DNA of 64,000 bases, from the NCBI GenBank assembly GCA_018646105.1, contig JABGVJ010000013.1, forward strand, positions 1,517 through 65,516. The letters are read 5' to 3'. Made by a program: the position numbers and the translations under genes. Positions 52,624-64,000 of the stretch are shown piece by piece. Below the pieces are notes generated by a model that made no database searches, was not told where the DNA came from, and saw nothing but the letters and a program-made list of their open reading frames with translations. Numbering within the stretch: position 1 is the first letter of the stretch; each line of letters opens with the position of its first letter. Origin of the DNA: a bacterium (lineage in GTDB: Bacteria > Margulisbacteria > Marinamargulisbacteria > JABGVJ01).

Positions 52624-53988
52624 TTAGTCTGTTTGGTTTAGGGCGGCTATAGCAGCACCTAAGAGGGATCCATTTTTAGTTAACACAAGGTTTATTTTTT
52701 TATTATTATTTTTAAAGATATTATTTAAAGAGGATATCATTCTTTCTGAGTATTTATAATATTTTTCGAAAATAGAGCCATCGATAGCAACGACATGGTT
52801 TTGGGAAAGAGTGGGGTCGATTTTTTTTAAAGATCCGGCTAAACAAGCCGCGGCTATTTTTGCGCTACGGTTAGAAATAAGTTGGATGATTTTTTTTGCT
52901 TTGATTCTAGTGGCTAGAGTAGATTCGATTTGGAGGGTAGTTAAGATTTGTTTGGTTTTTTTTAAGCCTAAAGAAGTATCTTTTTCTATTTCAGATAAAT
53001 AGGGGGTATGAAAACTGTTTTTTTTGTGAATGAGGTGTGAGGACGGTAAATTAGTAAGGGTTTTTAAAATTATTAATCTAAAGAGCTCGCCTAAATATGC
53101 CCCTGAAATCATTTTTTCAGCTATTTGTTGCCCGGGGTTTTCTGAATTTTGGTCTAATGTTTTATCAAACTCAGTGCGAGGAATAATTTGTTGAATAGCA
53201 AAATCCCCAGATTCGGTAACATAAATCATTTTGTCTATTAAAAGGCAAATATTAGTTCCGCTACCAAGTATCATAGAAACATCGCAATTTTGATTAAAAT
53301 AAGCTTTGGTGATGAGGGTGCCTGTAGTGTCGTTTAAAAGAGCTTTTATTTTTATATTGGAAAGGTGGATTTTTTTTAGAGCGTTTTGTAAAAGGACATG
53401 GGGGTCTTTGCCTTTAATTTCTGTTTCGCAGAATTCTTTGGATAAGGTTATGATTTGGCCATGGCTAGCATTTTTAGCGTTTAAATGGAAGCTAAAGGTA
53501 AGGCCTAAAGAAATGTCTGTTTGGTTGTTTTCTTGCGAGATAAGTTTACGAATGTGTTGCGCTATGTGGTCAAAAATAAGCAGAGGGTGTTTTTTTTCAA
53601 TAGGACTAATTTTTTTTTGAATTTTTTTTGAGATATCTATTTCTTCTGGATTAATTATTTTAGGATCTAAGTTTACTTTTAAAATTCTTAAATTTGAGCC
53701 GCCCCAATCAATCGCTAAGGTAATCCCGCTTTTTTTTTGAGAAGAAGGCTTAATATGGGTTTTCAGCATTTTGAGAGAGCTTTTTTTTTGATGTAAACCG
53801 TTATTTATTTCAGTTAGAAAAAATAGGGTGATATCTATAAGGGTTTGAGAAGAAAGAGTAAGCTGTTTTTTTAAGGATTGATGGTGTGAAGATATTTTAG
53901 GAAGAGATATTTTACTAAAAGACGGAGACAGAGGGGCTTTGTGCTTATAATGTTTAAAAAGATTGGTTTTTAAGGCCTGTTTTTTCAT
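52624..53988 (-). CDS. hexokinase-family sugar kinase
   Basis: Hexokinase signatures LAIDWGGSNLRILKV, LGLTFSFHL, ALLNDTTGTL, GSGTNICL, ISGAYLGE, VAIDGSIF, GSLLGAAIAA. Confidence 0.8.
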   Translation of the reverse strand: MKKQALKTNLFKHYKHKAPLSPSFSKISLPKISSHHQSLKKQLTLSSQTLIDITLFFLTEINNGLHQKKSSLKMLKTHIKPSSQKKSGITLAIDWGGSNLRILKVNLDPKIINPEEIDISKKIQKKISPIEKKHPLLIFDHIAQHIRKLISQENNQTDISLGLTFSFHLNAKNASHGQIITLSKEFCETEIKGKDPHVLLQNALKKIHLSNIKIKALLNDTTGTLITKAYFNQNCDVSMILGSGTNICLLIDKMIYVTESGDFAIQQIIPRTEFDKTLDQNSENPGQQIAEKMISGAYLGELFRLIILKTLTNLPSSHLIHKKNSFHTPYLSEIEKDTSLGLKKTKQILTTLQIESTLATRIKAKKIIQLISNRSAKIAAACLAGSLKKIDPTLSQNHVVAIDGSIFEKYYKYSERMISSLNNIFKNNNKKINLVLTKNGSLLGAAIAALNQTD

Positions 53989-57470: not shown

Positions 57471-58145
57471 TTATAAAAATCTAGTCCAAGACACTCCTAC
57501 GTTATAAAGCATGCCTTCGCCTCTAGCATTTGTTATATCCAAGATAGAAGCTCTAAAGAAAATATTATCTGAGAAATAATAACGAACACCAGAGTTGATT
57601 CTATATTGATTTCCTAAGTTGAGGATATCTGTCTCTATGGAAAATTCATCCGAAAGAAGATACTCAAGCCCTAACATAATGGAAGAATCGATTTCTGCGC
57701 CTAGAAAATGCGCTTTAAAACCAAAGTGGCCGTGAAACCCTTCCTGGAATTTTTTAGAAGCGACTAAATAAGCACTAGAATCTGTATGTGAGGTAAGTTT
57801 TTCCATACCGATAGCGATGGAAATAGGGTATCGGGAATTATCGGACATTAAATAATATTTTAGATTAACAAAAACGCCTTCTGTAGGAATGGTGCCTCCG
57901 ACAATTCCTAATTCAAAGCCTTTGAAGGAACCTAAGTTTAATTTGTAGTAATATACACCGTTATTGCTAGAAGGGGTGGCTTCGGATTTGACGCTATAGT
58001 CTAAACCAACATTGAACTCTTTATATTGTAGAGATTCAGCGGTTGGCATCTCAATGAGTCCTGAAGAACCATAGATGTTGGGTGCGGCATATCCTAATGA
58101 GGTGATCATAAAGATAGCGATTAGTATATAAAATATTTTTTTCAT
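57471..58145 (-). CDS. outer-membrane beta-barrel protein (OmpA/OmpW-like barrel)
   Basis: Signal peptide MKKIFYILIAIFMITSLGYA, alternating amphipathic beta strands, C-terminal aromatic residue. Confidence 0.55.
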   Translation of the reverse strand: MKKIFYILIAIFMITSLGYAAPNIYGSSGLIEMPTAESLQYKEFNVGLDYSVKSEATPSSNNGVYYYKLNLGSFKGFELGIVGGTIPTEGVFVNLKYYLMSDNSRYPISIAIGMEKLTSHTDSSAYLVASKKFQEGFHGHFGFKAHFLGAEIDSSIMLGLEYLLSDEFSIETDILNLGNQYRINSGVRYYFSDNIFFRASILDITNARGEGMLYNVGVSWTRFL

Positions 58146-58148
58146 AAT

Positions 58149-59132
58149 TTAGCCTCCTTTTTTTAATTCTTTTTTTACGAGTTTTTTTAAAACGGCTTTT
58201 TTTCGCATTTCAAGCCGATGGTTTTGGGCGGGAAATCCGGAAACTATAGTGTTGCTTGGAAGGTTTTTTGTAACACCTGTTTTGGCCATAACCACAACAT
58301 TATCACCAATAGTTATATGTCCGTTAAAACCAGCCTGTCCGCCTATTAATACATTATCTCCTAAAGTAACACTTCCGGCAAATCCTATTAGACCGGCTAA
58401 AGCGCAGTTTTTACCTATGATGGTATTATGCGCTAAATGATTTAAATTATCTATCTTCGTTCCTTGTTGAACAACGGTATTTCCTAAGCAACCTCTATCT
58501 ATACAGGTGTTAGCTCCTATTTCAACGTTGTTTTCGATGATGACTCGCCCAATATGCTGTATTTTGAGAAATTTTTTATTTTCTTGATAATAACCAAAGC
58601 CGTCGACTCCAATATTAGAACCGGCATGGATAATAACATTGTCGCCTATTTGAGTGTGATCATAAATGGTGACGCCAGGATAAATAAGGCAATTTTGGCC
58701 AATCTGAACATGTTGACCAATATTTACATTTGAACCTATGCGCGTTTTGGTGCCAATTATGGTTTTCTCACCAATAGATGTAAAGGCAGATATTTGAACC
58801 TGGTCAGCTAATTGTGCTGATTTGTGAATTTCTGTTTTAGAAGATATGTTAAAAGTTTCGACAGGTTTGGCAGGAGATAAGAGATTAATAGCCAAGGCCA
58901 AGGCTTTGCGAGGGTTTTTAACGATAATTTGATTTTTAAGATTATTTATAGGCTTAAAAGTAATAAAAGCGGCGGCTGAGGAAGCTTGGCTCTCTTTGAT
59001 ATATTTTGATTCTAGGACAAATGAAAGATCATTAGCCTGCGCCTGATCTAGACTAGCAAGGCTAATGATTTCAAGGTCAGGGTTTCCGATTAAGGTTCCT
59101 GCTAATTGAGTAGCTATTTTTCGAAGATTCAT
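58149..59132 (-). CDS. lpxD: UDP-3-O-acylglucosamine N-acyltransferase
   Basis: 327 aa; left-handed beta-helix hexapeptide repeats, N-terminal LpxD domain; bamA-skp-lpxD synteny. Confidence 0.85.
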   Translation of the reverse strand: MNLRKIATQLAGTLIGNPDLEIISLASLDQAQANDLSFVLESKYIKESQASSAAAFITFKPINNLKNQIIVKNPRKALALAINLLSPAKPVETFNISSKTEIHKSAQLADQVQISAFTSIGEKTIIGTKTRIGSNVNIGQHVQIGQNCLIYPGVTIYDHTQIGDNVIIHAGSNIGVDGFGYYQENKKFLKIQHIGRVIIENNVEIGANTCIDRGCLGNTVVQQGTKIDNLNHLAHNTIIGKNCALAGLIGFAGSVTLGDNVLIGGQAGFNGHITIGDNVVVMAKTGVTKNLPSNTIVSGFPAQNHRLEMRKKAVLKKLVKKELKKGG

Positions 59133-59135
59133 TAA

Positions 59136-59594
59136 TTAATTGTTTAATTTTTCTAATACGTAATCTGTCATGTCAAAGCCACCACTAATAATAACTTGTT
59201 TATCCAAGACTACCGTAATATTGTATTCTTTAGCTACTTCATCAGTAGCACTTATAATATCGTTTTTTAGCTTGAAAGTTAGTTCTTGATTTAATTTAAG
59301 AAGAGCCTCTTTTTTTGGCTCTAATTCTTTTTCTAGTTTTTCAATAAGTTTTTTTATTTTTTTATCATTTTGTTTTTTGTTTTTGGCTTCTTCTATTTTT
59401 TCTTGTCTTTTTTCTAATTCCTTTTGAAATTCGTCTTGTTTTTTCTTTAAACTATCCTGGGCTTTTTGTGCTTCAGCGTAACTATAGTAAATTTTTTGAA
59501 GATCAACCACTCCTACGGTATCTGCTGCAAAAGCTAAGCTAGGGATTAACATTATACCTGCGACTAGTAGACTTAATAAAATATTTTTTTTCAT
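59136..59594 (-). CDS. skp: periplasmic chaperone Skp (OmpH family)
   Basis: Signal peptide MKKNILLSLLVAGIMLIPSLAFA then K/E-rich coiled coil; position between bamA and lpxD; start set at internal Met. Confidence 0.7.
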   Translation of the reverse strand: MKKNILLSLLVAGIMLIPSLAFAADTVGVVDLQKIYYSYAEAQKAQDSLKKKQDEFQKELEKRQEKIEEAKNKKQNDKKIKKLIEKLEKELEPKKEALLKLNQELTFKLKNDIISATDEVAKEYNITVVLDKQVIISGGFDMTDYVLEKLNN

Positions 59595-59617
59595 TTTTAA
59601 CTCCTTTTTTGTTTTTT

Positions 59618-61384
59618 TTAGAAAGCATGCCCAATATTGAAGTGGGTATACCAATTTCCTTGTTCGTTATTACCAAAGTCTAGCCTAAAAGGTCCCAATG
59701 GGGTATTGAGTCTTAAGCCAAACCCTTTGCCGATTTTGTAGCCCTGAGAAAAAGACAGGACATTTTCTAAACTGTTAGAAGCAAGTCCTGTATCAATAAA
59801 GAGCACTCCTTGAAAGACCTCATTGAAAGAAACGCGATATTCTATACTTGCTAATAATCGTTTGCTACCAACGCTATAAGGGGACAGATCGCTATAGCCA
59901 CGGACAGTGTTTACACCTCCAGTATAATACAGTTCTGAATCCTGAAGATCGCCGGCCATATATCCTAGCTCTATTCTAGTAGCAATGGTTTGATTTTCAA
60001 AGGTTTGAAAAAATTTTCTTAGCCCTAAATCTGTTTTGATGAAATTTAAAGAATCTGCGTTTATTTTAAATCCTTTTTCCACGGACCAGGTATAATAGTC
60101 GCCGTTTAAAGGGTTAAACCAGACATCTCTGGTGTCATAAGAAAGCATTGGCGTATAGCTTTGTACTGAATAGACGTTGTTATCATCAGTCACATTAATG
60201 TTTTCTAAGCGTATTTTATGAGATACTCGTAGCTTTTCATCAAGAGGGATGCTTACGGACGCATCTAGACCGTTGCGGATTTCGTCTCTATAAGAGATAG
60301 CGCCTGCATTGGTGAGATTGCTAAGAAAGGCCTGCTCTCCATTGGTATGCCAAGCGCGAAATGTAAATGCTTTTCTTTCGGGCCACATCCAAGGATTGTG
60401 ATATTTGAATTGATAGGTAGAGCTTTTAAATTGACGGGCGAATTGTCCTTTTAAAGAGACTAACTGACCGGTGCCTAATATATTGTCCCAATAAACATCA
60501 GCAAAAACAAAAAGACCACTAGTATCACCATAACCGCCTCCAAAATTTATGGAGCTGGAAGATTTCTCAGTAAGATTTATCTTTAAAATATAATGAGCTG
60601 GTTCCTGGGCGGGAATAAAATCAGGGAGTGCTTCAGAAAAATAATTTAAATTAAAAATATTTTTAAGATCTTTTCTAAGTTCTTTTTGATTTAGGACATC
60701 GCCGGGTTTTGTTTTTATTTCTCTGAAGATCACATAATCTTTAGTCGTTGTATTACCGGTAATGAGGATTTTATCTAGAATTCCTTCGCCTATATAAAAA
60801 ACAAGGTTTTTATTTTTAGAGGTAGGGACATCTACTTTATAGATTTTAGCTAGAAAATAGCCTTGGTCTTTATAAAGCTTTTCGATGTTTTGCATATCTT
60901 TACGCAGTGTGTTGTAATTGAAAACTTTGTTTTTTTGAGAGGAAATGGTTTCTCTTAATTTTTCAGAGTTTATTTTTGTAGCGCCTTTAAAAATAATGTT
61001 TTTAACGAGAGGGTTTTCTTTTACTTTAAAGATTAAGATTTTATGGTTTTTAGAGGCTTTTTGAAGCTGATATTCCACATTGGAAAACAATCCAAGCGAT
61101 TTAATATTTTTAATGATTTGGTTGATTTTAATATTGTTAGCCTGGTCACCTGGTTTTAAATTTATTTCATTACTAATAAGTTTTAGAGGAATGTTTTTGT
61201 TGCCAATGATTTTGATGTCGGAAATTTTATTTTTTTGAGTTTGAGTCTTTGTGGGAGCACTTTGCGTTTCTAGGGCATTAAAAGAATTGACAATGGTTTC
61301 TAAATCAATAGTTTTGGGACTGTTAGCATAAAGGGGTGTAATAAATAATACAGTAAAAATAATTAAAGCTTTGCAATATTTCAA
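59618..61384 (-). CDS. bamA: outer membrane protein assembly factor BamA (Omp85), short form
   Basis: 588 aa; POTRA-like N-terminal repeats and Omp85 barrel ending …NIGHAF; shorter than 5-POTRA proteobacterial BamA. Confidence 0.8.
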   Translation of the reverse strand: MKYCKALIIFTVLFITPLYANSPKTIDLETIVNSFNALETQSAPTKTQTQKNKISDIKIIGNKNIPLKLISNEINLKPGDQANNIKINQIIKNIKSLGLFSNVEYQLQKASKNHKILIFKVKENPLVKNIIFKGATKINSEKLRETISSQKNKVFNYNTLRKDMQNIEKLYKDQGYFLAKIYKVDVPTSKNKNLVFYIGEGILDKILITGNTTTKDYVIFREIKTKPGDVLNQKELRKDLKNIFNLNYFSEALPDFIPAQEPAHYILKINLTEKSSSSINFGGGYGDTSGLFVFADVYWDNILGTGQLVSLKGQFARQFKSSTYQFKYHNPWMWPERKAFTFRAWHTNGEQAFLSNLTNAGAISYRDEIRNGLDASVSIPLDEKLRVSHKIRLENINVTDDNNVYSVQSYTPMLSYDTRDVWFNPLNGDYYTWSVEKGFKINADSLNFIKTDLGLRKFFQTFENQTIATRIELGYMAGDLQDSELYYTGGVNTVRGYSDLSPYSVGSKRLLASIEYRVSFNEVFQGVLFIDTGLASNSLENVLSFSQGYKIGKGFGLRLNTPLGPFRLDFGNNEQGNWYTHFNIGHAF

Positions 61385-61400
61385 AAAATAACTCCTTTTT

Positions 61401-61622
61401 TTAAGTAATAATGATGCCTAAAATAGCGGCGCTAATAAAAAAAACAAATCCTAAAAAAGAAGTTATTTTATTGAGGCCGGACTCGATGCCTTTGGTATAG
61501 TTGAAAACCTGAGCTTGTCCACCAATACTTCCAAGACCTTCTCCTTTAGGGGAGTGCATTAAGATGGTAATAACGAGTAAGATGCCAGAAATAAATTCTG
61601 TAGTTAAAAGAAAAGTTTTCAT
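61401..61622 (-). CDS. secG: preprotein translocase subunit SecG
   Basis: 73 aa, two TM helices, LLVITILMHSPKGEGLG motif. Confidence 0.75.
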   Translation of the reverse strand: MKTFLLTTEFISGILLVITILMHSPKGEGLGSIGGQAQVFNYTKGIESGLNKITSFLGFVFFISAAILGIIIT

Positions 61623-61674
61623 GTAAGCTCCTTTTTTTTAATAATTCATAGATCTTTAGAGAATTATACCTAAT

Positions 61675-62772
61675 CTATTGGGATTTTGAAATATTTAATA
61701 TTACACTAATAAAAAATATGGAAGTGAGTAGAGAGGTTCCTCCATAGCTGATGAAGGTTAAAGGGATGCCTGTGGTGGGCAAAACGCCAATGACTACGCC
61801 GATATTTATAAATGCTTGGACAACCAAAAACAAGGAAAGCCCTAACGCAAGGAAATAAGCAAACGTGTTTTTTGCAAAAAGAGCGATTTTTAATCCCCTA
61901 AAGAATAGAAAGGTAAAAAGAAAAAGAATGATGCTCGCTAAAATAAACCCTCCCTCTTCGCAGATGATAGCATAAATAAAGTCTGAATAATGAAGAGGTA
62001 GATAAAAATATTTTAGTTTGCTTTGTCCAAGCCCGTTTCCTAGAATGCCGCCAGAGCCAATGGCCGTGAAAGATTGTACTGTGTGATAATTTTTTCCTAA
62101 AGGATCGGCCCAGGGCGTTAAGAAAGATTGGATTCTGGTTATTTGATAGGGATGCATAAAAATATTTATGGAAATTAAGGAAATTCCAATAAAAGCGAAG
62201 ATGAGTAAATGTTTGATTTTGGCCTTGCTTAAAAATAAAAGTGAAAAAGTGACGATTAAGATAACAACTATGTTGCCAAGGTCTGGTTGTAAACCTAAGA
62301 GTAGGATAGGGATGCTGATAATGAGTAGTAGCGGGAGTATTCCTTTGAAAAAACTTTGAATTTGTTTTTTTTTATTAGCAAAAGCGGCGGCTAGAAAAAC
62401 AGTAATAAAAAATTTGCAGATTTCGACAGGCTGGAGTTGAAAAAAGTAAAGGTTTATCCAGCGAGAAGCCCCTCCTATTTTACGACCAATAGAAGGAGCA
62501 AAGGTCAAGAGCAGTAAAAGAATAGAAAAAAGCAGGCCGCTAAAAGCAAATTTTTGATAATGTTTATAGGGAATAAGATAGCCGGCTATAAATAGAGGAA
62601 TGCCAATAAGAAAGAATATGAAAAAGCGTTTAATAAAAAAATAACTATCATTATAAGTAGAGTAACCAACAACAGGGCTGGTAGAAAAAAGCATAACCGT
62701 GCCGATAGTAATTAATAGGCAGGTCGTGATAAAAAGAGGCCAGTCCCAAATTTGATGCTTGTTTTTATTCAT
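61675..62772 (-). CDS. SEDS-family peptidoglycan glycosyltransferase (FtsW/RodA)
   Basis: 365 aa, ~10 TM, SEDS motifs (PDLG, …SGG…), start ATG overlaps tetR stop (ATGA). Confidence 0.8.
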   Translation of the reverse strand: MNKNKHQIWDWPLFITTCLLITIGTVMLFSTSPVVGYSTYNDSYFFIKRFFIFFLIGIPLFIAGYLIPYKHYQKFAFSGLLFSILLLLLTFAPSIGRKIGGASRWINLYFFQLQPVEICKFFITVFLAAAFANKKKQIQSFFKGILPLLLIISIPILLLGLQPDLGNIVVILIVTFSLLFLSKAKIKHLLIFAFIGISLISINIFMHPYQITRIQSFLTPWADPLGKNYHTVQSFTAIGSGGILGNGLGQSKLKYFYLPLHYSDFIYAIICEEGGFILASIILFLFTFLFFRGLKIALFAKNTFAYFLALGLSLFLVVQAFINIGVVIGVLPTTGIPLTFISYGGTSLLTSIFFISVILNISKSQ

Positions 62773-63359
62773 AAATCTAGTATTCCGTCTAGATATCCAC
62801 GGACAAAGGAATCTGCTAGGCTGTAGGCGTTTTCAAGACTAATGATGCTCATTTTGCCGCTAAGACATAACGTACAAATTCCGTGCATTCCAGCCCAAAG
62901 GACACTGGTGGCTTTTTGAGCCAAAGGTAGGTTGTTTTTTAAAGTAGGGAGAAGGGCGCTTGATACTGTGAGGAACATTTTGTCTATTTCTAGCTGAGCC
63001 CAAGGGGGGAACTCTTCGCCTTTGGGCATACTATAATTGAAAAGCATGTTAGCAAGCTGGAAGTTTGATTTCCAAAAATCAATATAACATTTAGCCAATT
63101 CAGGCATAGAATTATGATGTTGAGTAAGGTTTAACTTTATTTTTGTGTGTAAATTGATAAGGGTGCGAGCATTAACTTTTAAAATGATTTCGTTGAGATT
63201 TTTAAATACATTATATAGGGTGCCTACTGTATAGCCGATTTCTTGAGATATTTTGCGGGCTGATAATTTTTGATAGCCTTCTTGTTCTATGATTTTTTCA
63301 GCCGCCTTTAGAATTAATTCTTGTAATTGTTCTATGGAATGATCATTGCGACGACCCAT
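62769..63359 (-). CDS. TetR/AcrR-family transcriptional regulator
   Basis: N-terminal HTH LSARKISQEIGYTVGTLYNVF; 196 aa. Confidence 0.8.
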   Translation of the reverse strand: MGRRNDHSIEQLQELILKAAEKIIEQEGYQKLSARKISQEIGYTVGTLYNVFKNLNEIILKVNARTLINLHTKIKLNLTQHHNSMPELAKCYIDFWKSNFQLANMLFNYSMPKGEEFPPWAQLEIDKMFLTVSSALLPTLKNNLPLAQKATSVLWAGMHGICTLCLSGKMSIISLENAYSLADSFVRGYLDGILDL

Positions 63360-63428
63360 TTGAAATCTCCTTTAAAAGTTTATAGGTGGATTTTAATATA
63401 ACGGAAAATAGTAGATGTGTAAAGAAAA

Positions 63429-63601
63429 ATGAACGCTGTTCAATACACTTGACAAAAGAAAAAAGACAGTGTTGAATTGAACGGTGATCAATTAATTTTT
63501 TTAGTGAGTATTGAACATTGTTCAATATTGTAAACGAAGGGAGGATGTAGAGAAAAAGAGGTTTTTATATATTTTTTTGGTGGATATTGAACGCTGTTCA
63601 A
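63429..63601. promoter_or_regulatory. four palindromic operator-like sites TTGAAC-N3-GWTCAA in tetR/ABC divergent intergenic region
   Basis: tGAACGCTGTTCAA (63430-63444), TTGAACGGTGATCAA (63477-63491), TTGAACATTGTTCAA (63511-63525), TTGAACGCTGTTCAA (63587-63601). Confidence 0.55.
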
Positions 63602-63655
63602 TATGGGGATTAAAAGAGGGTGGGGCGGGCGTAATTTTTTTTAAAGGAGGTTGAG

Positions 63656-63838
63656 ATGAAAAAAAGAAAAGGAATGTTGTTGAAAGCTATTGGTGGTTTT
63701 TATTTTTTGGATTTTAAAACAATAAAGTTAGAAAAAGTAGGTGCTTGGAGAGATTGTTTTTTTGATGAGGGTAACGGATATAAGGATTTAGAGTTGGTTT
63801 GGAATGGTTTAGGAATAACAAAGGAGAAAAAGAAATGA
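63656..63838 (+). CDS. hypothetical small protein
   Basis: 60-aa ORF with GGAGG RBS; overlaps start of ABC gene by 3 nt. Confidence 0.3.
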
Positions 63839-64000
63839 TAAAGTTAAAAAAGGTTAGTAAAAACATAAAAGTAAAAGGGGAAAAACAAGTAATATTGCAT
63901 AATATAAATTTAGAAATAGAGAAAGGGGAATTTGTATCTATTATGGGGCCAGTGGGTAGCGGTAAAAGCACGCTCTTAAGTATTATGGGGTTAATGCATA
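63836..64000 (+). CDS. ABC transporter ATP-binding protein (MacB/LolD-like), partial, continues beyond window
   Basis: [55 protein letters not shown]: Walker [10 protein letters not shown]. Confidence 0.8.

What the first reader, a model, noticed from the sequence alone, without database searches (positions are those of the whole stretch)
62769..63655. TetR regulator translationally coupled to an envelope-biogenesis gene string, with four palindromic operators in its divergent promoter
The tetR-family stop overlaps the SEDS (ftsW/rodA) start in an ATGA. secG, bamA, skp, lpxD and an OMP follow on the same strand with short gaps, which would make a TetR-headed envelope operon. The 296-bp region between tetR and the divergent small ORF plus ABC ATPase carries four copies of the 15-bp palindrome TTGAAC-N3-GWTCAA, three of them nearly identical. 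That arrangement is typical of TetR operators controlling both divergent transcripts. A TetR repressor wired to core outer-membrane biogenesis genes is unusual.
Basis: seen in the sequence. Interest (0 to 1): 0.5.

Follow-up and report, generated by a model that had tools for sequence, protein, structure and literature searches.

The report
TetR cassette inserted upstream of ftsW
A small-molecule-responsive TetR repressor, together with its own four-site operator region, sits between mraY and ftsW in a marine Margulisbacterium. The cell-division gene ftsW is therefore now read from the repressor's self-controlled promoter, which is an ordinary kind of regulator in an unusual, lineage-specific position.

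Summary
The tetR stop and the ftsW start share an ATGA at 62769-62772. The 296-bp divergent region carries four 15-bp palindromes, TTGAAC-N3-GWTCAA, and these are the only such sites in the 64 kb.

Comparative data show that the palindromes are the cognate operator of this TetR subfamily (PF00440 plus a WHG-type C-domain). The motif is about 22-fold enriched upstream of about 80 homologues from unrelated genomes. It often occurs in arrays of 3-4 sites with about 33-bp phasing. A matrix built only from those other genomes picks out exactly the four window sites.

The "TetR-headed envelope operon" is only partly supported. tetR-ftsW coupling is solid, because ftsW has no Shine-Dalgarno sequence of its own. 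In five of five relatives, however, ftsW directly follows mraY or murD. The block of degenerate ABC ATPase, orphan 60-aa ORF, operators and tetR is therefore best read as a lineage-specific insertion into a dcw/envelope gene string.

secG-bamA-skp-lpxD may have their own promoter in the 52-bp gap after ftsW. Control of ftsW by TetR is plausible but untested. The ligand is unknown; the closest characterised relatives sense acyl-CoA. Overall this is a new member of a known kind and of modest interest.

The parts
62769..63359 (-). tetR: 196-aa TetR/AcrR-family regulator with a WHG-type C-terminal domain
   Evidence: Pfam gives PF00440 at 35.8 bits and PF13305 at 25.4 bits. The alignment profile matches PDB 3cjd at E = 2.5e-32. 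The AlphaFold2 model has pLDDT 90.7 and nine helices. The best Foldseek match is 3cjd, followed by FasR and FadR-type TetRs. A strong AAGGAG ribosome-binding site precedes the gene.
62769..62772 (-). ATGA overlap of the tetR stop with the ftsW start (translational coupling)
   Evidence: The window reads tcat at these positions. ftsW has no Shine-Dalgarno sequence upstream. The FtsW N-terminus aligns over its full length with homologues.
61675..62772 (-). ftsW (SEDS), the positional orthologue of the dcw-cluster ftsW
   Evidence: TIGR02614 scores 354 bits against a cut-off of 337.5. Relatives carry it directly after mraY or murD. No paralogue occurs in the window.
63429..63443 (.). Operator O1 (ATGAACGCTGTTCAA). 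It ends 5 bp upstream of the -35 of the best tetR-directed promoter-like site.
   Evidence: The family matrix scores it 25.2 bits. An equivalent site lies at the same distance from the tetR ATG in L007.
63477..63491 (.). Operator O2 (TTGAACGGTGATCAA). It abuts the -10-like hexamer of a + strand TTGACA-17-TTGAAT site and lies 34 bp downstream of O3 in the tetR direction.
   Evidence: The family matrix scores it 17.4 bits. The 48-bp O1-O2 spacing is shared with L007.
63511..63525 (.). Operator O3 (TTGAACATTGTTCAA), inside the spacer of a tetR-directed TTTACA-16-AATACT promoter-like site
   Evidence: The family matrix scores it 24.1 bits. Family loci show the same operator-in-spacer layout with a second site 33 bp downstream.
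63587..63601 (.). Operator O4 (TTGAACGCTGTTCAA), 55 bp upstream of the 60-aa ORF start
   Evidence: The family matrix scores it 26.6 bits. In family loci the most distal operator likewise lies next to the ribosome-binding site of the divergent gene.
63395..63423 (-). Promoter-like site P1 toward tetR (TTTACA-17-TATATT, 10 of 12)
   Evidence: Found by the consensus scan and placed relative to the operators. This is a consensus match only.
63507..63534 (-). Promoter-like site P2 toward tetR (TTTACA-16-AATACT, 9 of 12), with O3 in its spacer
   Evidence: This is a consensus match only.
63449..63477 (+). Promoter-like site toward orf60/ABC (TTGACA-17-TTGAAT). Its last base is the first base of O2.
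   Evidence: Read directly from the sequence. L007 has an analogous divergent TTGACA between its two sites. The site was not reported by the scanner, because position 2 of the -10 is T.
63656..63838 (+). Orphan 60-aa ORF with a strong AAGGAGG ribosome-binding site, ATGA-coupled to the ABC ATPase
   Evidence: It has no Pfam or NCBIfam hit. No homologue outside its own cluster was found among 1.84 billion representative proteins.
63835..64000 (+). 5' part of a 224-aa MacB/LolD/FtsE-class ABC ATPase (the gene runs off the window; the full gene is L001 8851-9525, minus strand)
   Evidence: The nearest non-self homologue is 45% identical. The catalytic Glu is replaced by Asn, and the LSGGQ signature reads ISSGE. 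No permease gene is adjacent; the next gene is a convergent mraY.
57471..61622 (-). secG (61401-61622), bamA (59618-61384), skp (59136-59594), lpxD (58149-59132) and a 224-aa OMP-like gene (57471-58145). These are co-directional downstream genes that may or may not share the tetR transcript.
   Evidence: Gene identities come from Pfam. The same ftsW-secG-bamA-skp order occurs in the closest relative without tetR. No terminator-like site lies on this strand.
61663..61690 (-). Candidate internal promoter (TTCAAA-16-TATAAT) in the ftsW-secG gap
   Evidence: This is a consensus match in AT-rich DNA and is not significant on its own.

Best explanation
The four palindromes are the cognate operators of the adjacent TetR.

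Regulation (shown by comparison, except where marked):
- TetR dimers bind the four 15-bp sites.
- By inference, binding represses the promoters that fire toward tetR and the promoter(s) that fire toward the 60-aa ORF and ABC gene.
- By inference, an unknown small ligand releases the repressor. The closest characterised relatives suggest a fatty-acyl or lipid compound.

Origin of the arrangement:
- tetR, its operator region and the two divergent genes form a block of about 1.8 kb.
- In this Margulisbacteria lineage the block lies between mraY and ftsW of an older co-directional murE-murF-mraY-ftsW-secG-bamA-skp-lpxD string.
- The convergent ABC gene now separates ftsW from the mur/mraY transcript.

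Consequence for ftsW:
- ftsW has no ribosome-binding site of its own and overlaps the tetR stop.
- It is therefore transcribed from the autoregulated tetR promoter(s) and translated by coupling to tetR.
- Negative autoregulation would hold tetR-ftsW output at a steady basal level and raise it when the ligand is present.

Downstream genes:
- secG-bamA-skp-lpxD-omp probably receive read-through transcription.
- They may also be served by their own promoter in the ftsW-secG gap.
For: Operator assignment:
- The motif occurs only in this region of the 64 kb.
- The 59%-identical TetR of another Margulisbacterium (L007) sits in a different neighbourhood, yet has ATGAAC-N3-GTTCAG twice upstream. The 48-bp spacing and the distances to its ATG match O1 and O2.
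- Across about 80 homologue loci with GC from 30 to 68%, TGAAC-N3-GTTCA (up to 2 mismatches) occurs at 7.66 per kb in the 250 bp upstream, against 0.35 per kb elsewhere.
- 38 of 79 loci have two or more sites, and the dominant spacing is 33 bp.
- A matrix built from 127 sites of other genomes returns exactly the four window sites (26.6, 25.2, 24.1 and 17.4 bits) and nothing else at 8 bits or above.
- The recognition-helix region IGYTVGTLYNVF is nearly invariant in the subfamily.
- Operators overlap or abut promoter-like elements, as they do in family loci.

Coupling of tetR and ftsW:
- The ATGA overlap is present.
- ftsW has no Shine-Dalgarno sequence, whereas its neighbours have AAGGAG.
- No terminator-like site is found on this strand.

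Insertion:
- The window genome has murE-murF-mraY, then the convergent ABC and orf60, then tetR-ftsW.
- The closest relative (FtsW 68% identical) has mraY overlapping ftsW, followed by secG-bamA-skp.
- Four further relatives have mraY-murD-ftsW-murG or murD-ftsW-murG.
- No other family member lies near ftsW, bamA or lpxD.

Ligand hint:
- After 3cjd, the closest structural neighbours are the acyl-CoA sensors FasR and the FadRs of Thermus and Bacillus.
- 18 of 80 homologue loci carry an acyl-ACP-phospholipid acyltransferase (Aas/LplT) next to tetR.
Against: - There is no expression data, so the promoters are only consensus matches in 33%-GC DNA (30 found against 23 expected).
- O1 lies just upstream of the -35 of the best promoter-like site. 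This is not a classical blocking position, so repression at that promoter is not a given.
- A promoter for ftsW inside the tetR coding sequence cannot be excluded.
- The direction of the evolutionary event rests on parsimony from five relatives. Only one of them is close, and it has no DNA available.
- No direct repeats or compositional signature mark the block's borders.
- Only 64 kb plus about 9 kb of the genome could be scanned for further operators.
- ftsW is normally essential, and it is awkward to place such a gene behind a tight repressor.
Confidence: 0.68

Rival explanations
1. TetR is a dedicated, selected regulator of envelope growth. One long transcript, tetR-ftsW-secG-bamA-skp-lpxD-omp, is switched by a lipid or envelope signal.
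For: - The genes are co-directional with gaps of 3-52 nt, and no terminator-like site lies on this strand.
- The subfamily is repeatedly found next to envelope or lipid genes: Aas/LplT, rhombosortase with its target, and a small signal-peptide protein in L007.
- Members often head operons. 33 of 68 loci have a same-strand ORF within 60 nt downstream, and some overlap by 4 nt.
Against: - The linkage to ftsW is seen only in this species.
- The same ftsW-secG-bamA-skp string exists without tetR in the closest relative.
- The ftsW-secG gap carries TTCAAA-16-TATAAT plus a strong ribosome-binding site.
- No operator lies near secG, bamA or lpxD.
Confidence: 0.2
2. The block is a decaying remnant and its regulation is neutral. 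tetR still autoregulates, but ftsW is expressed from an unrecognised constitutive promoter inside or upstream of tetR. The divergent ABC gene and orf60 are on their way to becoming pseudogenes.
For: - The ABC ATPase has lost its catalytic Glu and the LSGGQ signature. It has no adjacent permease and no close homologue.
- orf60 is an orphan.
- ftsW is expected to need steady expression; this rests on established knowledge of SEDS proteins.
Against: - The TetR protein and all four operators are intact and identical in seven independent assemblies.
- orf60, the ABC gene and tetR all keep strong ribosome-binding sites and intact reading frames.
- No promoter-like site was found on the coding strand inside tetR.
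Confidence: 0.1
3. The palindromes belong to another system: LexA/SOS boxes, a dispersed repeat element, or an RNA structure in the leader of the ABC transcript.
For: - The GAAC/GTTC half-sites resemble the Gram-positive LexA box (from memory).
- RNA covering O3 and O4 folds with z = -5.2.
Against: - The half-site spacing is N3, not N4.
- The motif follows the TetR gene across unrelated genomes and neighbourhoods.
- It occurs nowhere else in the 64 kb.
- There is no Rfam match.
- The RNA fold is the trivial pairing of two near-identical palindromes.
Confidence: 0.02

Closest known systems
Classical divergent TetR/operator modules (TetR-tetA, QacR-qacA, AcrR-acrAB)
   Same: An autoregulated TetR gene is transcribed divergently from a transport-type gene. 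Palindromic operators in the shared intergenic region overlap the promoters.
   Different: There are four operators spread over about 170 bp instead of one or two. tetR is also the first gene of an operon. The divergent 'transporter' is a lone, degenerate ATPase. The co-transcribed gene is ftsW, which is a core cell-division gene rather than an efflux or catabolic gene.
Thermus thermophilus FadR (TetR family), with consensus site 5'-TTRNACYNRGTNYAA-3' (PMC5597230)
   Same: The palindrome is 15 bp long with the same outer half-sites (TTGAAC and GTTCAA fit TTRNAC and GTNYAA). The protein is a TetR-family member, and the acyl-CoA-bound structures 3ang and 3anp are among the structural neighbours.
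   Different: The central triplet prefers RNY here, against YNR in FadR. Structural identity to FadR is only about 15%. The protein is far below the cut-off of the NCBIfam FadR model, which is built on Bacillus-type FadR (32 bits against 200). It is not next to fatty-acid degradation genes.
PDB 3cjd, an uncharacterised TetR regulator of Jannaschia sp. CCS1
   Same: It is the closest solved relative both by sequence profile (E = 2.5e-32) and by fold (TM 0.76-0.83).
   Different: It is only 24-25% identical, and no function, ligand or operator has been reported for it.
Mycobacterium tuberculosis FasR (acyl-CoA-sensing TetR-family activator of fas-acpS)
   Same: It is the next-best structural neighbour. 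It is a TetR that binds upstream of a promoter for an essential lipid or envelope operon and is released by long-chain acyl-CoA.
   Different: FasR activates transcription. It is only 16-17% identical, and its operator is different. There is no evidence here for activation, although O1 lies just upstream of a -35.
Listeria monocytogenes LstR (PadR-type repressor), whose own operon contains an FtsW/RodA homologue (PMC6624303)
   Same: A small-molecule-type repressor heads and autoregulates an operon that includes a SEDS-family gene.
   Different: The regulator family differs. The Listeria SEDS homologue is non-canonical and lacks FtsW/RodA function, according to that paper. Here the gene is the positional orthologue of the dcw ftsW.

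Membership tests
TetR/AcrR family of transcriptional regulators | N-terminal helix-turn-helix DNA-binding domain (PF00440) | tested here: met
   It scores 35.8 bits against a cut-off of 24, over residues 16-59.
TetR/AcrR family of transcriptional regulators | All-helical fold of about nine helices, with a C-terminal ligand and dimerisation domain | tested here: met
   The AlphaFold2 model has pLDDT 90.7 and nine helices. All top Foldseek hits are TetR-family structures.
TetR/AcrR family of transcriptional regulators | Palindromic operator near its own promoter (autoregulation) | tested here: met
   This is met by comparative footprinting only: 22-fold enrichment upstream of homologues, and a matrix from other genomes that finds the four sites. 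Binding itself was not tested.
TetR/AcrR family of transcriptional regulators | Ligand-induced release from DNA | not testable with these tools
   This needs EMSA or ITC with candidate ligands.
TetR_C_33 / WHG-type subfamily (PF13305) | C-terminal domain model above the gathering score, with the W..HG motif | tested here: inconclusive
   The score is 25.4 bits against a cut-off of 26.8. W155, H159 and G160 are invariant in the alignment, and nearly all homologues carry PF13305.
FadR-type fatty-acid TetR regulators (Bacillus and Thermus) | Protein passes the equivalog model and lies in a fatty-acid degradation context | tested here: not met
   NF053878 scores 32 bits against a cut-off of 200, in the N-terminal domain only. 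There are no fad genes nearby.
FadR-type fatty-acid TetR regulators (Bacillus and Thermus) | 15-bp operator TTRNACYNRGTNYAA (Thermus FadR, PMC5597230) | tested here: inconclusive
   The half-sites and length fit. The central triplet is RNY here, not YNR.
LexA (SOS) box of the Gram-positive type | GAAC-N4-GTTC spacing (recalled from memory) | tested here: not met
   The spacing is N3 in all four sites and in 127 family sites.
FtsW (SEDS) of the dcw cluster | Passes the FtsW equivalog model and is syntenic with the mur/mraY genes | tested here: met
   TIGR02614 scores 354 bits against a cut-off of 337.5. Relatives carry it directly after mraY or murD.
Functional MacB/LolD/FtsE-class ABC transporter | Intact Walker B catalytic Glu and LSGGQ signature, with a partner permease | tested here: not met
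   ILADEPTG reads ILADNPTN and LSGGQ reads ISSGE, although both are invariant in eight homologues. No permease gene is adjacent. All NCBIfam equivalog scores are below cut-off.
Single tetR-to-lpxD envelope operon | One transcript from the tetR promoter through secG-bamA-skp-lpxD | not testable with these tools
   Short gaps and the absence of a terminator-like site favour it. A promoter-like site in the ftsW-secG gap argues for at least one additional start.

The most novel reading that the evidence does not exclude
Insertion of a ligand-responsive TetR module has turned the canonical ftsW into a naturally inducible unit. Through read-through the same may apply to secG-bamA-skp-lpxD. This Margulisbacterium would then tie septal peptidoglycan synthesis and outer-membrane assembly to a lipid-type signal sensed by a so far uncharacterised, widely distributed TetR subfamily. 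The hallmark of that subfamily is an array of up to four TGAAC-N3-GTTCA operators phased at about 33 bp.
Probability: 0.15. Interest if true: 0.6.

Novelty: new member of a known kind. Interest (0 to 1): 0.33.

Why it matters
If TetR really gates ftsW, this would be a natural case of an essential division gene captured by a small-molecule switch after a gene-order accident. That would be useful for thinking about how core operons get rewired.

The more robust outcome is an inferred operator and a multi-site architecture for an uncharacterised TetR subfamily found across phyla. The operator is wwATTGAAC-RNY-GTTCAATww. The subfamily is often found next to lysophospholipid-recycling (Aas/LplT) and rhombosortase genes. 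This makes its regulon and ligand directly testable. None of it changes current concepts of TetR regulation.

Tried and rejected
- A genome-contig scan with FtsW returned only distant phyla (up to 44% identity) and no Margulisbacteria.
- The LexA-box idea was rejected because the half-site spacing is N3, not N4, and because the motif co-occurs with TetR homologues.
- A dispersed repeat or MITE was rejected because the motif is absent elsewhere in the 64 kb.
- A riboswitch or leader RNA was rejected. Rfam finds nothing in 61300-64000 at E up to 1. The strong RNA fold (z = -5.2) is just O3 pairing with O4.
- Signs of recent horizontal transfer were sought without success. GC and GC3 of tetR, ABC and orf60 match their neighbours, and no 8-mer or longer is shared at the block borders.
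- Homologues of orf60 were sought among 1.84 billion representatives, and none was found.
- Close homologues of the ABC ATPase were sought to find its permease partner.
- Literature searches for the motif, for PF13305, for TetR with LplT/Aas, and for TetR with rhombosortase found no description of this subfamily.
- Two more distant TetR homologues show only a degenerate single site each (L008 and L010). 29 of 79 family loci have no site at up to 1 mismatch. The motif is therefore not universal in the wider family.
Full report
**1. What is in the sequence**

On the minus strand, tetR (62769-63359, 196 aa) ends in a TGA that shares three bases with the ATG of a SEDS gene (61675-62772). The window reads tcat at 62769-62772.

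Pfam and NCBIfam confirm the gene identities:
- TetR_N scores 35.8 bits. TetR_C_33 scores 25.4 bits, just under its cut-off.
- The SEDS protein passes the FtsW equivalog TIGR02614 (354 bits against 337.5).
- Downstream come SecG, BamA (POTRA plus Omp85), Skp (OmpH), LpxD and a 224-aa OMP-like protein.
- Gaps on this strand are 52, 16, 23, 3 and 3 nt. dnaE and a hexokinase follow.

The 296-bp region up to the divergent 60-aa ORF (63656-63838) holds four 15-bp palindromes at 63429, 63477, 63511 and 63587. At 0 mismatches the pattern occurs nowhere else in the 64 kb. At up to 1 mismatch there are 11 strand-matches against 0.86 expected.

**2. Whose sites are they?**

The exact TetR protein is found on 21 or more contigs from marine metagenomes and MAGs, including GCA_018644845.1. 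All show the same arrangement and identical sites. The organism belongs to Candidatus Margulisiibacteriota, going by the names attached to homologues.

The nearest TetR homologue is 59% identical and sits in another Margulisbacterium (L007) in a different neighbourhood. It is divergent from a 169-aa signal-peptide protein and lies upstream of dnaX-ybaB-recR. Its upstream region nevertheless carries ATGAACACCGTTCAG and ATGAACAATGTTCAG, 48 bp apart, at -134 and -86 from the ATG. O2 and O1 of the window lie at -131 and -83.

A metagenome scan with an alignment of the subfamily returned 80 loci. Apart from L093, which is the window's own species at 100% identity, their TetRs are 37-49% identical, and the loci range from 30 to 68% GC.
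- TGAAC-N3-GTTCA (up to 2 mismatches) occurs 157 times in 20.5 kb of upstream sequence, or 7.66 per kb. It occurs 143 times in the remaining 410 kb, or 0.35 per kb.
- At up to 1 mismatch, 12 loci have two sites, 13 have three and 13 have four. The dominant spacing is 33 bp (28 cases), and a second cluster lies at 64-68 bp.
- A matrix built from 127 sites, none from the window's species, gives the consensus wwATTGAAC-RNY-GTTCAATww. Scanned over the window it returns exactly four hits at 8 bits or above, namely the four palindromes at 26.6, 25.2, 24.1 and 17.4 bits.
- The recognition-helix segment IGYTVGTLYNVF is almost invariant in the subfamily.

The palindromes are therefore the cognate operator of this TetR subfamily. 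The four-site array is a family trait, not a peculiarity of this locus.

**3. Layout relative to promoters (consensus matches only)**

In family loci, one operator fills the spacer between a -35 and a -10 that point toward tetR. A second operator lies 33 bp downstream. The most distal one lies about 10 nt from the ribosome-binding site of the divergent gene.

The window repeats this pattern:
- O3 fills the spacer of TTTACA-16-AATACT, which points toward tetR.
- O2 lies 34 bp downstream of O3.
- O1 ends 5 bp before the -35 of the best promoter-like site, TTTACA-17-TATATT (10 of 12).
- On the other strand, a perfect TTGACA (63449) followed by 17 nt and TTGAAT runs directly into O2.
- O4 lies 55 bp upstream of the orf60 start.

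Promoter-like matches are not enriched in this AT-rich DNA (30 found against 23 expected). These assignments are therefore inference.

**4. Is it a TetR-headed envelope operon?**

The tetR-ftsW link is strong:
- The two genes overlap by 4 nt.
- ftsW has no Shine-Dalgarno sequence, whereas tetR, orf60, ABC, secG, bamA, skp and omp all have AAGGAG.
- No terminator-like site lies on this strand.
- No promoter-like site lies on the coding strand inside tetR.

Beyond ftsW the case weakens:
- The 52-bp ftsW-secG gap carries TTCAAA-16-TATAAT followed by a strong ribosome-binding site.
- No operator lies anywhere downstream.

Read-through is likely, but exclusive control by TetR is not shown.

**5. 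How the arrangement arose**

Beyond the window end, the ABC gene is followed by a convergent mraY, preceded by murF and murE. In tetR orientation the order is murE, murF and mraY on the forward strand, then ABC and orf60 on the reverse strand, then the operators, then tetR, ftsW, secG and bamA on the forward strand.
- In the closest relative (FtsW 68% identical), mraY overlaps ftsW by 13 nt, and secG-bamA-skp follow. There is no tetR.
- Four more distant Marinamargulisbacteria-type relatives (56-59% identical) have mraY-murD-ftsW-murG or murD-ftsW-murG.
- None of the other TetR-family loci sampled has ftsW, bamA or lpxD nearby.

The parsimonious reading is that a block of about 1.8 kb (ABC, orf60, operators, tetR) was inserted between mraY and ftsW. 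The insertion cut ftsW off from the mur/mraY transcript and replaced translational coupling to mraY with coupling to tetR.

No border repeats or compositional anomaly remain. A 97-99% identical strain variant probably carries the block as well, because the TetR (P0001) and FtsW (P0065) variants come from a contig of the same length. The event is therefore not very recent.

**6. The divergent genes**

The 224-aa ATPase belongs to the MacB/LolD/FtsE class but is below every equivalog cut-off.
- Its best non-self homologue is 45% identical.
- In an alignment with eight homologues, the otherwise invariant ILADEPTG reads ILADNPTN, so the catalytic Glu is Asn. LSGGQ reads ISSGE, and Walker A GPSGSGKST reads GPVGSGKST.
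- No permease gene is adjacent.

orf60 has no family hit and no homologue among 1.84 billion representatives, yet it has a strong ribosome-binding site. The presumed primary target of the repressor is thus an odd, possibly hydrolysis-dead ATPase with an orphan peptide.

**7. What the subfamily usually sits next to, and the ligand**

In Proteobacteria-like loci, the divergent genes are often a GlyGly-CTERM-type target protein (25 of 80) and a rhombosortase (13 of 80). The downstream gene is often an acyl-ACP-phospholipid O-acyltransferase, the Aas/LplT fusion (18 of 80; NF006386 at 1570 bits).

About half of the loci with enough sequence have a same-strand ORF within 60 nt of the tetR stop. Several overlap by 4 nt. 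Heading an operon is therefore normal for this subfamily.

The AlphaFold2 model (pLDDT 90.7) is closest to the uncharacterised 3cjd. After that come the acyl-CoA sensors FasR (M. tuberculosis) and FadR (Thermus, Bacillus). The operator has the same length and outer half-sites as the Thermus FadR consensus TTRNACYNRGTNYAA (PMC5597230), but a different centre. A fatty-acyl or lipid ligand is a reasonable guess and nothing more.

**8. Verdict**

The comparative data turn that guess into a well-supported assignment.

The proposed operon is solid only for tetR-ftsW. The unusual wiring is best explained as a lineage-specific insertion of a standard TetR module into a dcw/envelope string. [quoted passage not shown]

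Whether ftsW, and by read-through bamA and lpxD, really respond to the TetR ligand is open and testable. Interest is modest.

Noticed in passing
window 63835-64000 and beyond (L001 8851-9525, minus strand): The ABC ATPase divergent from tetR has a degenerate active site. Walker B ILADEPTG reads ILADNPTN, so the catalytic Glu is Asn. The signature LSGGQ reads ISSGE. It has no homologue above 45% identity and no adjacent permease. It may be a hydrolysis-dead or repurposed ATPase.
   Followed up: partly
window 63656-63838: A 60-aa ORF with a strong AAGGAGG ribosome-binding site is ATGA-coupled to the ABC gene. It has no homologue outside its own cluster among 1.84 billion representative proteins.
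   Followed up: yes
window 63605-63629 (+): A G-quadruplex-like run, GGGGATTAAAAGAGGGTGGGGCGGG, lies between O4 and the orf60 ribosome-binding site. It is one of only two such four-run motifs in the 64-kb, 33%-GC window.
   Followed up: no
loci L106-L170 (for example L122 1008-8134): In many Proteobacteria-like metagenome loci the same TetR subfamily sits between a divergent rhombosortase with its GlyGly-CTERM-type target and a downstream 1150-aa Aas/LplT acyl-ACP-phospholipid acyltransferase. Three or four operators lie at fixed offsets of about -229, -162, -96 and -63 from the tetR ATG. This looks like an undescribed regulon.
   Followed up: partly
L007 3216-3330: The closest TetR orthologue has three sites, the third degenerate (TAAACAGTGTTTA), spaced exactly 48 bp apart. 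Its tetR precedes dnaX-ybaB-recR after a 178-bp gap. This is another case of the regulator sitting upstream of housekeeping genes.
   Followed up: partly
window 63485-63660 (+): RNA from this stretch folds far better than shuffles (z = -5.2) because O3 and O4 are near-identical palindromes that pair with each other. This is probably a by-product, but it would form in any leader transcribed from upstream of O3.
   Followed up: partly
window 52624-53988 (-): A eukaryote-type hexokinase (Hexokinase_1 plus Hexokinase_2 domains, 454 aa) lies immediately downstream of dnaE on the same strand, with a 1-nt gap.
   Followed up: no
L001 5610-8806 versus relatives: In this lineage and its closest relative, murD and murG are missing from their usual places on either side of ftsW, and secG-bamA-skp-lpxD follow ftsW instead. 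This rearrangement of the dcw cluster predates the tetR insertion.
   Followed up: partly
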